A stretch of 64,000 bases of DNA from Sedimentisphaerales bacterium (GTDB lineage Bacteria > Planctomycetota > Phycisphaerae > Sedimentisphaerales > SM23-30), in contig CAXXFK010000030.1 in the NCBI GenBank assembly GCA_963663965.2, positions 1 to 64,000 of the forward strand, written 5' to 3'. A program made the position numbers and the translations under genes. Shown here in pieces: positions 26,298 through 34,893 of this stretch (positions within the stretch are counted from its first letter, which is position 1; each line of letters begins with the position of its first letter). The notes beneath the pieces are model-generated. The model did no database searches and was not told where the DNA came from. It was given only the letters and a program-made list of their open reading frames with translations.

Positions 26298-26951
26298 ATG
26301 GCTAAAATTAGTAGAGATTTTTTTAACATTGTTGTAATTGGCAGCATGAATCCCCAGATTATGAACCATGATTGGCTTGTGAAGCATAAGATTATTTCCA
26401 GGTCCTTTTATGTAAAAGATAATCCTGCAAAGTTTAACCAATTTATAAATATGCCACAACTCGCTCATATTTTTTATAAAGATGTTGACATACAAATTCA
26501 TTTGGATAGATTCGCACTGACTGCCCGTACCCCAAATATTACGAAAAGTGTCATCAATATTGCTACTAAATATTTTAGTTGTCTTAATCATACTCCTATC
26601 AAAGTAGTCGGTTTTAATGTCAATCACACAATTAGTTTTGATGACCAAAATGAAGAAACTAGATTTGATGAAAAATATGTTTCACCAAATGCAGCCATGA
26701 AAAAAATGATTGGTTCTTGCACATCATATAGACCCGGTTTTACTTTGTTTTGTTGTAAGAATGGATGTAATTATCGTTTTGTATGCGCGAAGACGCCGAA
26801 TAAATTAACCGCTCATATCAGCCATAATTGTGAATATAAGATAAATAAAACAGATTCTTCAGACGAGTTAATTGCTTTTCTTGATCAAAAAGCGTACGCC
26901 ATAGTAAAGGAAATGAATGATATTAATGAGGGTTTAACAGCGGAATTATGA
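26298..26951 (+). CDS. Hypothetical protein, TIGR04255-like by motif
   Basis: IVVIGSMNPQI..HDWL and HTPIKVVGFN; AT-rich. Confidence 0.55.
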   Translation: MAKISRDFFNIVVIGSMNPQIMNHDWLVKHKIISRSFYVKDNPAKFNQFINMPQLAHIFYKDVDIQIHLDRFALTARTPNITKSVINIATKYFSCLNHTPIKVVGFNVNHTISFDDQNEETRFDEKYVSPNAAMKKMIGSCTSYRPGFTLFCCKNGCNYRFVCAKTPNKLTAHISHNCEYKINKTDSSDELIAFLDQKAYAIVKEMNDINEGLTAEL

Positions 26952-27391
26952 CACCTGAAACTTCAAATACCGAAATAAGCATAACTATAGATAACGTCTC
27001 TACATATCCTTTTGCCAGGTATGTTCCCAACTGTTTGGGAGATACATTTTTTGTTGATGATAATTCTACGAGAAGGCCTACTGTATCCACCTACAGGCTG
27101 CCCATGTGGGCGGAGAAGTGGGTTCGCATTAACAATTACGAAACATCCGATTTGATTTTCAGGCATTCTTTACAAGAATCGATCGATACTTGTCTGGCAA
27201 TAATCAAATCTATAATGAGGACTGGATTTCTTGTTGTTATTGGCGAAGAGTATGACAATAATATCACATTGTCAATACAGACAAAAAATAAAACGGCTCA
27301 TGATCAGATAAAATTATTAATGGATATTAATCGTACGATTACTAGCCAAATATCCAGTGAAGCGCTATCGTTTATTAATATTATTATTTAG
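26948..27391 (+). CDS. Hypothetical protein, possible antitoxin-like partner
   Basis: ATGA overlap with the upstream gene; AT-rich. Confidence 0.55.
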   Translation: MTPETSNTEISITIDNVSTYPFARYVPNCLGDTFFVDDNSTRRPTVSTYRLPMWAEKWVRINNYETSDLIFRHSLQESIDTCLAIIKSIMRTGFLVVIGEEYDNNITLSIQTKNKTAHDQIKLLMDINRTITSQISSEALSFINIII

Positions 27392-27407
27392 CGGTCGGGT
27401 ATTGATT

Positions 27408-27830
27408 ATGGAGGCCATAAAATTTCTCACTATTACAGCCAGAAAGTTAAAGGGAGGCAATCAAGAATCAGATTGGCGTTCTTCGGCAAGCCGATCTTAT
27501 TATGCTGTTTTTCACTACATCAGGGATGTTTTTCAAAACTCTGGATTGGATCTTATTAAAGGGGATACGCACAACCTTCCACAGTATTTTTATTGTTCTT
27601 CTGACATCGAAATAAAAACGATTGGTCAAAATATCCAATCCCTCTATCGCTATCGAGCTCGTGCAGACTATGAGATTAAGTTGGAATTCATGAAAAATGA
27701 TTCTCAAAAAGCTTACATTCTAGCCGAACTACTTATAGAGCAATTCGATAAAATGTTTAGAGCCAAAAAGCGTGAAGTTATTGATTCGGCCCAAAAATTT
27801 ATTTCATCAAAAAACTTTAAGAATAATTGA
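27408..27830 (+). CDS. HEPN domain protein
   Basis: RSSASRSYYAVFH, THNL, RARADY. Confidence 0.8.
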   Translation: MEAIKFLTITARKLKGGNQESDWRSSASRSYYAVFHYIRDVFQNSGLDLIKGDTHNLPQYFYCSSDIEIKTIGQNIQSLYRYRARADYEIKLEFMKNDSQKAYILAELLIEQFDKMFRAKKREVIDSAQKFISSKNFKNN

Positions 27831-31088: not shown

Positions 31089-32309
31089 ATGAACGAGTCA
31101 ACCGATATGAATCGACGTGGATTTCTGGCGAGTGCGGCGGGGTTGTCGCTGGCGGCGGCGACGGGCAATTTATCGGGAGCGGGTGAAGATACGGCCAGGA
31201 TCAAATTGGGTTTGATTGGTTGCGGGCGGCGCGGGACCTGGATCGCGGATCTGTTTGTGAAACATGGCGGTTATGAGCTTTGGGCCTGCGCGGATTATTT
31301 TGCCGATCGGAGCGCGGCGGCGGGCATTCGATTTGGCGTGCCGGGGGAACGGCAGTTTGCGACATTGTCGGCGTATAAACGGTTGCTGGAGAGCGGGGTG
31401 GAGGCGGTGGCGATCGAGAGTCCGCCTTATTTTCATCCGGAGCAGGCGGCCGCGGCGGTCGAGGCGGGGTTGCATGTGTACCTGGCCAAGCCGATGGCGG
31501 TGGACGTGCCGGGGTGTCAGACGGTGCTGGCCAGCGGGAAGGCGGCGCGCGCGAAGAAACAGTGTTTTCTGATCGATTTTCAGACGCGGGCCAACGGCTA
31601 TTTTATCGAAGCGATCAAGCGGGTGCATGACGGGGCGCTGGGCGCGGTGGCGTTTGGCGAGGCTAGCTATCACGCGGATTGCCCGTGGTACGGCGATATG
31701 GAGCTTATGCGCAAAGATCTGAATAATCCGGAGAACCGGTTGATTGGGTGGGGAGTGAATGTGGCGCTGTCGGGCGATATTATCGTTGAACAGAATATCC
31801 ATACCCTGGATGTGATGAACTGGATCATGAAGGTGCCGCCGCTGTCGGCGACGGGTACGGCCGGGCGCAAGGTGCGGCCGCTGGGCGATTGCAGCGATCA
31901 TTATGCCTGTGTGTATCAGTATCCCGACCGGGTTGGGATTACCTTCAGTTCGCGCCAGTTCAAGGGGCATGGGATGCAGCCGGAGGGGATACGCAACCGG
32001 ATGTTTGGCGCGGAAGGCGCGCTGGCCACGGAGTATGGCGGGCAGGTGGTGATCCTGGGCGACCATTTCTACCAGGGGGGCAAGACCTCGGGGATTTATG
32101 GCGAAGGGGCGGCGGCCAATATTGCGACGTTTTATGACAATATCAAGGCGGGGAACTACGACAATGTGACGGTGGAGCCGAGTGTGCAGAGTAACCTGGT
32201 GAGTATCCTGGGGCGGGAGGCCGCGCGGCGTCAGACGACGGTGACCTGGGAGCAGCTGATGAAAGACGCGCCCCGGCTGGAATATGATTTTAAGGGGTTG
32301 AAGCGTTAG
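31089..32309 (+). CDS. Tat-exported Gfo/Idh/MocA oxidoreductase
   Basis: NRRGFL; LIGCGRRG; AKPMA; EQNIHTLD. Confidence 0.9.
   Translation: MNESTDMNRRGFLASAAGLSLAAATGNLSGAGEDTARIKLGLIGCGRRGTWIADLFVKHGGYELWACADYFADRSAAAGIRFGVPGERQFATLSAYKRLLESGVEAVAIESPPYFHPEQAAAAVEAGLHVYLAKPMAVDVPGCQTVLASGKAARAKKQCFLIDFQTRANGYFIEAIKRVHDGALGAVAFGEASYHADCPWYGDMELMRKDLNNPENRLIGWGVNVALSGDIIVEQNIHTLDVMNWIMKVPPLSATGTAGRKVRPLGDCSDHYACVYQYPDRVGITFSSRQFKGHGMQPEGIRNRMFGAEGALATEYGGQVVILGDHFYQGGKTSGIYGEGAAANIATFYDNIKAGNYDNVTVEPSVQSNLVSILGREAARRQTTVTWEQLMKDAPRLEYDFKGLKR
32273..32309 (+). repeat. 37-bp direct repeat, left copy (attL-like; the oxidoreductase 3' end)
   Basis: CCGGCTGGAATATGATTTTAAGGGGTTGAAGCGTTAG, identical at 34735-34771. 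Confidence 0.92.
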
Positions 32310-32344
32310 AGATTAATCTCATATGATAAGACAGGTTTCTGGTA

Positions 32345-33163
32345 ATGGCTAACAAAAATCAGCCGGTGGCATATGCCCGGATTCATGTTCTGATGGCCCG
32401 GAGCGCGCTGTATGGGGTGGTTATGCGACGGGGGCCGTCTAAGCAGGTTTGTACGATCGGGTGGGACCGGGAGCATGATACTTTCCAGATCGGGCAGTGG
32501 CTGAAGGGGCGTATTTATGAACGGCGCTGCGATTTGTCGCCGGATGGCAAACGCATGATTTATTTTGCCATGAACGGGAAATGGCAGTCAGATGTCGGGG
32601 GGAGTTGGACGGCCATTTCCAGGGCGCCGTATCTGAACTCGGACATGCTGGAGGGTAAGGGAGACTGTTGGCATGGGGGTGGTCTTTTTATGGATAATGA
32701 GACTTACTGGATTAACGACGGGTATGGCCATAAAGTTGTTCCGGGTCATGCTCCTTTCGATTTCAGTTTTAAAGAGAATAATTATCTCGGAGAATGTCCG
32801 GGTGTTTATTATCCTCGACTCAAGCGTGACGGCTGGGTGATGACAGGAAAAACCGATACGATCAGTTCTTTTGAGAAAGAGTTGTGGGGCGGCTGGATAT
32901 TGCGGAAGCAAGCTTATGCTACAATCGATCATCCGCCCGGCAAGGGGTGTTATTATGATGAACATGAATTGATCCATACGACAAGAGGGAAGGCTATTCG
33001 CCATCCAGATTGGGAATGGGCCGAACGGGATCGGGACCGTCTGGTCTGGGCCGAGAAGGGGTGTTTGTACACCGGCACGCTAAATAATGATGGGCTGGCA
33101 GAGATTCAGTTGCTGCGGGATTTTAACGATATGGTTTTTGAGCCGATTAAGGCGCCTTATTAA
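32345..33163 (+). CDS. Hypothetical Trp-rich protein
   Basis: 272-aa ORF; RRGPSK, GRIYERRCDLSPDG. Confidence 0.7.
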   Translation: MANKNQPVAYARIHVLMARSALYGVVMRRGPSKQVCTIGWDREHDTFQIGQWLKGRIYERRCDLSPDGKRMIYFAMNGKWQSDVGGSWTAISRAPYLNSDMLEGKGDCWHGGGLFMDNETYWINDGYGHKVVPGHAPFDFSFKENNYLGECPGVYYPRLKRDGWVMTGKTDTISSFEKELWGGWILRKQAYATIDHPPGKGCYYDEHELIHTTRGKAIRHPDWEWAERDRDRLVWAEKGCLYTGTLNNDGLAEIQLLRDFNDMVFEPIKAPY

Positions 33164-33235: not shown

Positions 33236-33305
33236 TTGGCCCCGACGCTCGATGGACCTAAATTGCACAATCGAACTCCTTGCCGGTCAATGGAACTTTC
33301 TGCAT
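33236..33305 (-). pseudogene. Decayed 5' fragment of a GxxExxY gene
   Basis: MQKVPLTGKEFDCAI*VHRASGP vs MQKDPLTGKVIGCAIEVHRALGP. Confidence 0.85.
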
Positions 33306-33334: not shown

Positions 33335-33473
33335 ACCACAGAGGGCACAGAGAACACAGAGTAAAATAACAGCCGCCAGTGGCTTGTTGACGAATAATAA
33401 GATACCCGAACATAGGAATAAAATCTTGTGGGTGCAATGAAATCTGAGTGTTTTTCTCTGTGCCCTTTGTGGT
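33335..33473. repeat. Inverted-repeat-bounded segment 1 (CACAGAG 9-bp periodic arms)
   Basis: ACCACAGAGGGCACAGAG ... CTCTGTGCCCTTTGTGGT (17/18). Confidence 0.88.
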
Positions 33474-33572
33474 AGTATTTTTTCAAAACCTGTCATATTT
33501 TCATTATCGACTTTTTGTCTTAACGTATGTAAAAATTCGTTCGTCGCTTCTTTTCATGGAGCAAAGGAGTCT

Positions 33573-34016
33573 TTATATCTTTTTAATCAGATCAGCAAAA
33601 TGGGCCGGGTATTGAACCGTTTTATTGGAGACATGATCAAAAAGAGTCTCGCCGCGAATTTCATATCTGGCCAGTAACGTTTGGGTATCGAAAACCAGCA
33701 TGCCGCCAATGGATAGACGGCGGAACAGCGCGTAAGTTACAGAAGCCATCGTCATCAGTTGTAAAGGCCGAAAGTCCGCGTCGGACCATGGAGTGCGAAT
33801 ACTGATTTTATATTGAAAGTTTTCAACGTCCAGCTCGCCATCATTTTCAAGGGTATGTTCGCCAAAATAAAATTCCATACCCAAAAGCCAACAGAAACGA
33901 TAGTCATCGGGATCTTCGCGTGAGGCAAACCGGCACCCAATCCATCCTTCCAGATCTTTGAGCAACGTCTCCTGATCGCCATCGTAATTAAACAAGAAAT
34001 CTATTGTAATACTCAT
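33573..34016 (-). CDS. Acidic hypothetical protein, possibly immunity-like
   Basis: 147-aa ORF co-oriented directly downstream of GxxExxY. Confidence 0.6.
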   Translation of the reverse strand: MSITIDFLFNYDGDQETLLKDLEGWIGCRFASREDPDDYRFCWLLGMEFYFGEHTLENDGELDVENFQYKISIRTPWSDADFRPLQLMTMASVTYALFRRLSIGGMLVFDTQTLLARYEIRGETLFDHVSNKTVQYPAHFADLIKKI

Positions 34017-34049
34017 ATATTCATTTTCTGAAGGGATATCACAAAGCCC

Positions 34050-34421
34050 CTAAAACACGTACCGTTGAATGCCGTCAACCAGCCTCAGCACATTAAAATT
34101 GATTAACAATCCCTTATGGATATCCGCCAGTTTCATATAGGTCATTAATTGGGCCTTATGGATCTCCTGGACCGTATCTACCGCCTTCAACTCTACAATC
34201 AGCTTGCCTTCGACCATGAGATCTATTCTGTAGCCACAATCCAGTTTTATCCCTTTATAGACCACCGGTAGCGATGCTTCGACTTGATGTGTCACAGCAT
34301 TCAATCCCAACTCGTGAGCCAGACATTTCTGGTAAGTCGATTCCAGCAATCCCGGCCCCAATGCCCGATGAACTTCAATCGCACAACCAATCACTTTTCC
34401 TGTCAATGGGTCTTTTTGCAT
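34050..34421 (-). CDS. GxxExxY family protein (PD-(D/E)XK nuclease-like)
   Basis: LGPGLLESTY, YRIDLMVE, IVELKAV, QLMTYMK, GLLINF; GGAGG RBS before ATG 34421. Confidence 0.95.
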   Translation of the reverse strand: MQKDPLTGKVIGCAIEVHRALGPGLLESTYQKCLAHELGLNAVTHQVEASLPVVYKGIKLDCGYRIDLMVEGKLIVELKAVDTVQEIHKAQLMTYMKLADIHKGLLINFNVLRLVDGIQRYVF

Positions 34422-34449
34422 CTTACACCTCCACTCAATAAAAGCACTA

Positions 34450-34623
34450 ACCACAGAGGGCGCAGGGTTCACAGAGAAAAAACACTTGTGATTAAACACT
34501 CAGATTCCATTATAACAACAAGCCATTTATAATCAATTTATTTCTATGTTCTATATGCCGTTATCCGTTAGCTAGTCATTGGCGACTTTTGTTTTACTCT
34601 GAGTTCTTAGCGCCCTCTGTGGT
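34450..34623. repeat. Inverted-repeat-bounded segment 2
   Basis: Perfect 14-bp IR ACCACAGAGGGCGC / GCGCCCTCTGTGGT, extending imperfectly to 27 bp. Confidence 0.9.
34509..34536 (-). promoter_or_regulatory. Sigma70-like promoter inside segment 2, facing GxxExxY
   Basis: Minus strand TTGATT, 16-bp spacer, TATAAT with TGn extended -10. Confidence 0.6.
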
Positions 34624-34734
34624 AACAATATTTTTATCAGCCCGGTCGATTCGTAAAAAGCAGGCTCATTTACCCTTCTCCCTGTCTCATGGTACCATTT
34701 CGATCATGTGAGAGCAGTTGAAGAAAGATGCGAT

Positions 34735-34771
34735 CCGGCTGGAATATGATTTTAAGGGGTTGAAGCGTTAG
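34735..34771 (+). repeat. 37-bp direct repeat, right copy (attR-like)
   Basis: Identical to 32273-32309; 18/23 similarity continues upstream. Confidence 0.92.
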
Positions 34772-34893
34772 GCTTGATCTGCATTTATAGATTTAAGGGC
34801 TCCCCTAAAAATTCAATATGTGAATTATTTCCAGAAATTCTATGTATGTTTATTCCGCATGGAGCGAGGCCCCGTTCGCGAAACTGTTCCTTA

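What the first reader, a model, noticed from the sequence alone, without database searches (positions are those of the whole stretch)
33335..34623. Putative invertible promoter switch in front of GxxExxY: two paralogous IR-bounded segments in opposite orientations
Seen: the intact GxxExxY gene (start 34421) and its decayed 5' copy (start 33305) are each preceded by a segment bounded by ACCACAGAGGGC inverted repeats (34450-34623 and 33335-33473). The gene-side flanks align in the same orientation. The interiors align only as reverse complements: segment 1 TAAAATAACAGCCGCCAGTGGC...GAACATAGGAATAAA...AATGAAATCTGAGTGTTT vs segment 2 reverse complement TAAAACAAAAGTCGCCAATGAC...GAACATAGAAATAAA...AATGGAATCTGAGTGTTT. 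Segment 2 carries TTGATT-16-TATAAT with an extended -10 pointing at the intact gene. In segment 1 the homologous site points away and is degraded (TGCAAT). The two arms of each copy share a copy-specific base (GGGCGC vs GGGCAC). Known: GxxExxY proteins are PD-(D/E)XK-like and functionally uncharacterised. Inference: this is an ON/OFF inverton, or a hairpin element that flips, with no invertase in the window; GxxExxY itself or a distant recombinase could act on the 9-bp-periodic arms.
Basis: partly seen in the sequence, partly recalled or inferred. Interest (0 to 1): 0.88.

Follow-up and report, generated by a model that had tools for sequence, protein, structure and literature searches.

The report
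One-off flipped hairpin before nuclease gene
A short hairpin-shaped repeat in front of a small nuclease gene really does sit the other way round in a dead duplicate nearby, but related repeats elsewhere keep their orientation, so this looks like an old one-time flip within a widespread, little-studied repeat family and not a working on/off switch.

Summary
The units at 33335-33473 and 34450-34623 align end to end only as reverse complements (111 of 138 positions), while the gene-side flanks align directly (86 of 111). The inverton reading is poorly supported. The arms belong to a widespread CACAGAG-word hairpin family that surrounds GxxExxY (PF13366) genes in many phyla; this scan has noted that family before on other DNA. 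Among 127 orientable pairs of related units, 126 keep their orientation and only the window's pair is flipped, also in genomes with intact GxxExxY genes. Contigs from the probable source sample show one orientation, at low depth. The flipped copy is decayed: three deletions, one removing the -35 box, in front of a 23-codon gene stump. The protein models as a bare PD-(D/E)XK nuclease, not a recombinase. Best reading: unit plus gene start was duplicated and one copy inverted once through the outer 12-14 bp of its arms. A locus-specific switch is not excluded (about 0.1); it needs deep raw reads. The association of arms with GxxExxY is the interesting part; I found no description of it.

The parts
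34450..34623 (.). Segment 2: 174-bp hairpin unit (arm, interior, arm) directly upstream of the intact GxxExxY gene
   Evidence: (folds with z -4.8)
34450..34476 (+). Gene-side arm of segment 2 (three 9-nt words); the outer 14 bp are perfectly complementary to the far arm
34597..34623 (-). Far arm of segment 2; homologous to the gene-side arm of segment 1
34509..34536 (-). Sigma-70-like site TTGATT-16-TATAAT with TG, pointing at GxxExxY; predicted only
34050..34421 (-). Intact GxxExxY gene, 123 aa (PF13366, TIGR04256), catalytic-type residues E27, D67, E77, K79 present
33573..34016 (-). 147-aa ORF downstream of GxxExxY, between the two copies; no Pfam or NCBIfam match; weak lead to SitI3-like immunity proteins
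33335..33473 (.). Segment 1: 139-bp decayed copy of the unit, inverted relative to its gene-side flank; three deletions (12, 15 and 9 nt) against segment 2
33335..33361 (+). Gene-side arm of segment 1 (three words)
33454..33473 (-). Far arm of segment 1 (two words; one word lost)
33237..33305 (-). Stump of a second GxxExxY copy, codons 1-23, 74% amino-acid identity to the intact gene
32345..33163 (+). 272-aa ORF of no known family, inside the repeat-bounded low-GC stretch
32247..32319 (+). Left direct repeat: 3' end of a Gfo/Idh/MocA gene plus about 10 nt
34709..34780 (+). Right direct repeat (88% identical over 73 columns), closing a stretch of about 2.4 kb and 45% GC that holds both copies

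Best explanation
The two segments are gene-less hairpin units of a widespread repeat family that accompanies GxxExxY nuclease genes, laid out like REPINs beside a RAYT gene. Here one unit carries a 100-120 bp interior that probably serves as the promoter of GxxExxY and the ORF behind it (inferred). Long ago the block 'unit, leader, first codons of the gene' was duplicated (shown by homology; about 20% diverged). During or after the duplication one copy was inverted once through the outer 12-14 bp of its arms, by homologous recombination or polymerase template switching, with no dedicated invertase (the inversion is shown; the route is inferred). The downstream copy then decayed. Which copy flipped is not settled; segment 1 is the likelier one. 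The intact unit is normally fixed in the orientation that points at the gene.
For: End-to-end reverse alignment with all three large deletions in segment 1. Arms of this type flank GxxExxY genes across phyla: 27 of 103 genes sit inside an inverted pair and 10 of 103 have a complete unit just upstream, as here. A hairpin pattern of this type matches in 50 of 301 genomes of the order, and the reversed control in none of the rows listed. Orientation census: 126 of 127 orientable pairs concordant, in 15 groups of 60 units; the one exception is the window. Gene versus orthologous flank: 33 concordant matches in 11 groups, no flip. Five genomes rich in stable units each carry several full-length GxxExxY genes. 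Duplicated gene ends with arms recur: 3 of 89 genes have an extra 5' piece (window included) and 2 an extra 3' piece, with more in L368. One orientation and no strand-changing joint in the contigs. Inversions between inverted repeats can arise by general recombination (PMC4272514, passages); template switching homogenises arms and inverts spacers (PMC8604942, passages).
Against: The census compares species and paralogues, not cells of one population; a switch resting mostly in one state would look stable. Pairs within a group are not independent, 42 of the 60 concordant units are not in GxxExxY loci and come largely from one genus, and 150 further pairs had no orientable flank and were dropped. 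No other copy of this particular interior was found, so its own behaviour is known from two copies only, and they differ. The yeast spacer inversions in PMC8604942 are 2-5 bp, far shorter than here. Segment 2 has a 14-bp perfect repeat and a good promoter match, which is what an inverton looks like. Contig depth is only about 4.5 and contigs drop rare variants.
Confidence: 0.7

Rival explanations
1. Locus-specific ON/OFF inverton: segment 2 flips repeatedly, driven in trans by one of the genome's tyrosine recombinases or provoked by GxxExxY cutting the extruded hairpin, and so switches the nuclease and the next gene on and off; segment 1 froze in the OFF state.
For: Opposite orientations in two paralogues; 14-bp perfect repeat, within the 10-40 nt range given for invertons (PMC11892184, passages); promoter-like site pointing at the gene; both arms of segment 2 share a rare G (16 of 328 arms); 16 tyrosine-recombinase domains elsewhere in the genome.
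Against: No other flip in 127 orientable pairs or among 146 GxxExxY loci screened by a second method; no recombinase domain nearer than about 170 kb on this contig and no serine-resolvase match in a 94.6% complete genome; one orientation in contigs; the arms are a generic dispersed repeat (21 hits in this genome), which a dedicated invertase would risk recombining; the protein has a hydrolytic nuclease fold.
Confidence: 0.1
2. The whole hairpin unit is a REPIN- or MITE-like mobile piece that was excised and re-inserted, or inserted twice, at the same spot upstream of two GxxExxY paralogues, in opposite orientations.
For: The units are reverse complements from end to end, so the boundary could lie at the outer edge of the arms; the far flanks are unrelated; dispersed families of related units exist in other genomes; REPIN excision is described (PMC3116915, passages).
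Against: No third copy of this interior in the genome, in 401 genomes of the class or in the metagenome scan; no target duplication seen; dispersed units elsewhere keep their orientation to their flanks; unit and flank have diverged to a similar degree (80% and 77%), as expected from one duplication.
Confidence: 0.13
3. Assembly artefact: the assembler reversed one interior between the short repeats.
For: Hairpins and repeats can mislead assemblers (general knowledge).
Against: A Logan contig of 2485 bp covers both segments with no differences; the perfect repeats (14 and 20 bp) are shorter than the 31-letter words; the copies differ by 20%.
Confidence: 0.02

Closest known systems
REPINs with RAYT genes (Bertels and Rainey 2011, PMC3116915; passages read)
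   Same: Inverted doublets with a spacer that fold as hairpins, dispersed between genes, with singlets and tandem clusters, and gathered next to one small nuclease-type gene.
   Different: The partner is a PD-(D/E)XK protein (PF13366), not an IS200-like tyrosine transposase; the arms are built of 9-nt words; the gene often sits inside the hairpin; no mobility of the unit is shown here.
Invertible promoters / invertons (fimS type; definitions from PMC11892184, PMC4272514 and bioRxiv 10.1101/2023.03.11.532203, passages read)
   Same: Short inverted repeats around a 100-150 bp intergenic segment with a promoter-like site; two orientations seen relative to a homologous flank.
   Different: The two orientations are in two diverged paralogues, one dead, not in one population; no adjacent invertase; the repeats are a dispersed family whose other members do not flip.
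Spacer inversion and arm homogenisation by template switching (PMC8604942; abstract and passages read)
   Same: Enzyme-independent inversion between short inverted repeats, with arms made alike.
   Different: Described there for 2-5 bp spacers in yeast genes; the spacer here is 100-146 bp.
GxxExxY / PDDEXK_3 family (TIGR04256, PF13366)
   Same: Full-length member; function listed as unknown in PMC3424549 (table row read).
   Different: The flanking repeat family was not found described in the library.

Membership tests
Invertible promoter (inverton) | Short inverted repeats (10-40 nt) around the segment | tested here: met
   14-bp perfect and 32-nt imperfect repeat in segment 2; 20 nt at 95% in segment 1
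Invertible promoter (inverton) | Both orientations present at one locus within a population | tested here: inconclusive
   Only contigs, depth about 4.5, two runs of one sample; one orientation, no strand-changing joint
Invertible promoter (inverton) | Orientation varies among homologous copies | tested here: not met
   For the arm family: 126 of 127 pairs and 33 of 33 same-site gene-flank matches concordant. The window's own pair is the single exception; no further copy of its interior was found
Invertible promoter (inverton) | A cognate tyrosine or serine invertase | tested here: inconclusive
   None in the window; 16 PF00589 matches elsewhere, nearest at C30:206560; no PF00239 match. Action in trans cannot be excluded
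Invertible promoter (inverton) | A working promoter inside the segment | not testable with these tools
   Consensus match only
GxxExxY / PDDEXK_3 | Match above the curated cut-off and conserved motif | tested here: met
   PF13366 140.6 bits; TIGR04256 145.2 bits; G24, E27, Y30, D67, E77, K79 invariant in 38 sequences
GxxExxY / PDDEXK_3 | Restriction-endonuclease-like fold | tested here: met
   Model pLDDT 96; best matches BpuSI Z 7.9, rmsd 2.7, 91 aligned; Cas4 SSO0001 Z 7.8, rmsd 5.1, 101 aligned; many further nucleases of this fold; all Z under 8
REPIN/RAYT | Inverted doublet with spacer folding as a hairpin, repeated between genes | tested here: met
REPIN/RAYT | Associated gene is an IS200-like tyrosine (HUH) transposase | tested here: not met
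   The adjacent gene is PF13366. The genome was not searched for a RAYT elsewhere
REPIN/RAYT | Excision or spread of the doublet as a unit | not tested
   No orthologous empty site was available

The most novel reading that the evidence does not exclude
The GxxExxY protein cuts the hairpin or cruciform formed by its own arm repeats, and repair of that cut drives the duplications of gene ends and, at this locus, repeated inversion of a promoter-bearing interior: a phase switch run by a PD-(D/E)XK nuclease instead of a recombinase, controlling the nuclease itself.
Probability: 0.07. Interest if true: 0.85.

Novelty: new variant of a known kind. Interest (0 to 1): 0.4.

Why it matters
As a single historical inversion the finding is modest: it shows that these arms can serve as a recombination substrate. 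The wider association matters more. GxxExxY is a large nuclease family of unknown function, and its genes are very often wrapped in or preceded by word-built hairpins, which gives a direct substrate to test. The census also gives a useful negative: these hairpins are not general invertons, so inverted-repeat-based inverton predictions at such loci need read evidence. If the switch reading proved true, it would be a phase switch without a recombinase of the usual classes.

Tried and rejected
Metagenome pattern scan for the interior: 27 stretches, none with a GxxExxY gene or a homologous interior, judged chance. Viral contigs: no relative of the protein. DNA searches of 41 relatives and 401 genomes of the class found genes and arms but no second interior and no orthologous locus. 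Sequencing runs: no RNA holder listed and no raw reads, so nothing can be said about transcription; run X3 does not cover the locus apart from arm-like pieces of other organisms. Rfam: one chance-level match. Sequence search of solved structures: no match; no recombinase or transposase among the 50 fold matches shown, which does not exclude one. The first census run and the first locus screen missed the window's own pair because of over-strict scoring or masking; I loosened them until this positive control was found and report those runs. The screen of 146 loci flagged 6 besides the window: L066, L329, L368 and L369 were aligned and are arm-only or separate left and right arms; L029 (short tandem array) and L032 (another element's ends) were judged by reading the sequence. 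An ORF-based test of gene orientation (11 of 23 co-oriented with both neighbours, 2 opposite to both) was too crude and was replaced by the flank test. The 28 near-identical copies in one Waddliaceae genome are a passenger cassette in a larger insertion sequence, not evidence that GxxExxY mobilises itself; 27 of them were left out of all counts. A hint that the unit upstream of a GxxExxY gene in G019 resembles this interior in segment 2's orientation (p about 0.008 uncorrected, AT-rich) is too weak to fix the ancestral state. Searches of earlier scan notes for an invertible case and for this genome returned nothing.

Full report
1. Observation. Both segments are present as described. With arms trimmed, the interiors align as reverse complements with score 67 (1000 shuffles: mean 18.7, maximum 33) and on the same strand with score 14. 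A global alignment of segment 1 with the reverse complement of segment 2 runs from the first base to the last, 111 of 138 aligned positions identical, with three larger gaps, all of them losses in segment 1: 12 nt that take out the -35 box, 15 nt between two short direct repeats, and one 9-nt arm word. The gene-side flank (leader and first 23 codons) aligns directly at 86 of 111; the far flanks are not detectably related. The whole unit is therefore inverted relative to the gene, and the exchange points lie in the outer 12-14 bp that both arm types share, or at their outer edge. Each unit folds as a hairpin (z -4.8 and -4.6). The promoter-like site is the best of 5 in the region, where 4.0 are expected; 132 of 2000 shuffles of the interior give 10 of 12 or better, TG not counted. 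It is plausible, not shown. The copy-specific base is weaker evidence than it looks: A is the norm (296 of 328 arms), and loss of one word produces it in segment 1's far arm. Only the G shared by both arms of segment 2 (16 of 328 arms) is informative, and it fits arm homogenisation by any route.

2. Surroundings. The gene is an intact 123-aa GxxExxY protein (PF13366; TIGR04256). Downstream lie a 147-aa ORF, then segment 1 and a 23-codon stump. All of this, plus a 272-aa ORF of no known family, sits in a stretch of about 2.4 kb and 45% GC between two copies of the 3' end of a Gfo/Idh/MocA gene (32247-32319 and 34709-34780, 88% identical; flanking genes 57-60% GC). This looks like an old acquired stretch (inference); no recombinase gene lies in it.

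3. The arms are a widespread family. The genome has 21 matches to the arm motif, mostly single, and 5 full-length GxxExxY genes, several with arms built of other words. Arms of this kind flank most of the 80 related loci from named genomes of many phyla. Of 103 distinct genes, 27 sit inside an inverted pair, 10 (window included) have a complete gene-less unit just upstream, and 35 have no arm of this word type nearby. A pattern for gene-less units matches in 50 of 301 genomes of the order. Duplicated gene ends recur: 3 of 89 genes have an extra 5' piece and 2 an extra 3' piece; one cluster in G004 holds three tandem 3' ends and a 5' stump. Earlier notes of this scan describe the same gene-and-arms family in other genomes; they are unchecked AI notes, and I rely on my own calls.

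4. Do such units flip? From 282 of 337 loci (left out: 27 near-identical insertion-sequence copies, 27 chance hits, one duplicate of the window) I extracted 178 distinct units. 277 pairs had homologous interiors; 150 had no orientable flank and were dropped. Of the remaining 127, 126 are concordant (15 groups, 60 units) and one, the window's pair, is discordant (earlier rounds). Five groups (18 units) are in GxxExxY loci; ten (42 units) are dispersed or orthologous units, mostly from one genus, five of whose genomes were checked and each carry several full-length GxxExxY genes. Where the gene itself could be compared with orthologous flanks, 33 matches in 11 groups were concordant, none flipped, and 8 were different insertion sites. 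A second screen that does not depend on the arm pattern, over 146 GxxExxY loci, recovered the window and six other flags, none a flipped interior on inspection. Thresholds were loosened until the window was recovered (searches missed it). Limits: pairs are not independent, there is one genome per species, and a switch resting mostly in one state would pass as stable. No other copy of this interior was found.

5. Population data. Only Logan contigs were available. In run X1 one 2485-bp contig covers 32280-34764 with no differences at depth 4.5; X2, from the same sample, agrees in two pieces; no strand-changing joint is listed. This supports the assembly, though the sample may be the window's source. 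It says little about rare variants.

6. The protein. The model (pLDDT 96) is a bare restriction-endonuclease-like domain; the best fold matches are restriction enzymes, Cas4 and other nucleases of that fold, with Holliday junction resolvases lower down, all at Z under 8. The catalytic-type residues are invariant. From established knowledge (recalled), such enzymes hydrolyse DNA and form no covalent intermediate, so they are poor candidates for a conservative invertase, though a cut at an extruded hairpin could provoke repair. The genome has 16 tyrosine-recombinase matches, the nearest about 170 kb away, and no serine-resolvase match.

7. How it most likely works. Shown: duplication of unit plus gene start; one inversion through the arms; decay of the downstream copy; stability of related units. 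Inferred: the intact unit supplies the promoter; the inversion came from general recombination or template switching between the arms (PMC4272514, passages; PMC11040001, passages; PMC8604942, abstract and passages, where inverted spacers are only 2-5 bp); segment 1 is the copy that flipped. I put this at 0.7, re-insertion of a mobile unit at 0.13, a locus-specific inverton at 0.1 and an artefact at 0.02.

8. Comparison and novelty. It works like a REPIN beside a RAYT gene in layout (PMC3116915, passages) but is not a member, since the partner is a PD-(D/E)XK protein. It meets the shape of an inverton (PMC11892184 and bioRxiv 10.1101/2023.03.11.532203, passages) but fails the family-wide orientation test, and the population test is inconclusive. 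Searches for 'GxxExxY' (3 papers, 2 listed; one passage read in bioRxiv 10.1101/2021.01.26.428298, the other paper seen only in the listing) and for 'PDDEXK_3', 'PF13366' or 'TIGR04256' (2 papers; one table row read in PMC3424549, function unknown) found no description of the arms. The library lacks most subscription papers and I read no supplements. Verdict: a real, probably one-off inversion in an apparently undescribed nuclease-and-repeat family; interest 0.4.

Noticed in passing
window 32247-32319 and 34709-34780: The 3' end of a Gfo/Idh/MocA gene is repeated (88%) on the far side of a 2.4-kb low-GC stretch, as at the ends of elements that integrate into gene ends, but no integrase lies within it. 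Contigs break at both copies.
   Followed up: partly
window 33573-34016 (-): The 147-aa ORF resembles clusters in which 42% of members carry PF28107 SitI3 (score 0.90); a lead to an orphan immunity gene behind GxxExxY. SitI3 as a myxobacterial immunity protein is recalled and seen only in a search listing.
   Followed up: partly
L032-L061 (Waddliaceae genome): An arm-GxxExxY-arm cassette rides as a passenger in an insertion sequence of about 1.76 kb with TA ends, present in at least 28 near-identical copies; the IS630 label is my recall from the ends and layout.
   Followed up: partly
G000:C30:101900-111830: Four single arms in the same orientation, 3.0-3.6 kb apart, sit at the starts of small gene blocks, two of which hold paralogous genes; possibly a cassette array punctuated by arms.
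   Followed up: no
L368 (G004:C1:4378000-4397500): Three GxxExxY genes, a 31-codon stump and three tandem copies of a gene 3' end with its arm lie within 11 kb.
   Followed up: partly
L174, L258 and related loci (genus g304): Dispersed repeated elements of several hundred bases contain an arm-bounded unit at their centre, at least 13 and 11 copies sampled, with fixed orientation and no adjacent GxxExxY gene where checked.
   Followed up: partly
G000, many arms; window 33366-33375: The motif ATAACAGCC often lies just before or after arms in this genome and at one end of segment 1's interior.
   Followed up: no
window 26298-27830: Three small low-GC genes ending in a HEPN-domain gene, a possible toxin-antitoxin or defence module.
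   Followed up: no
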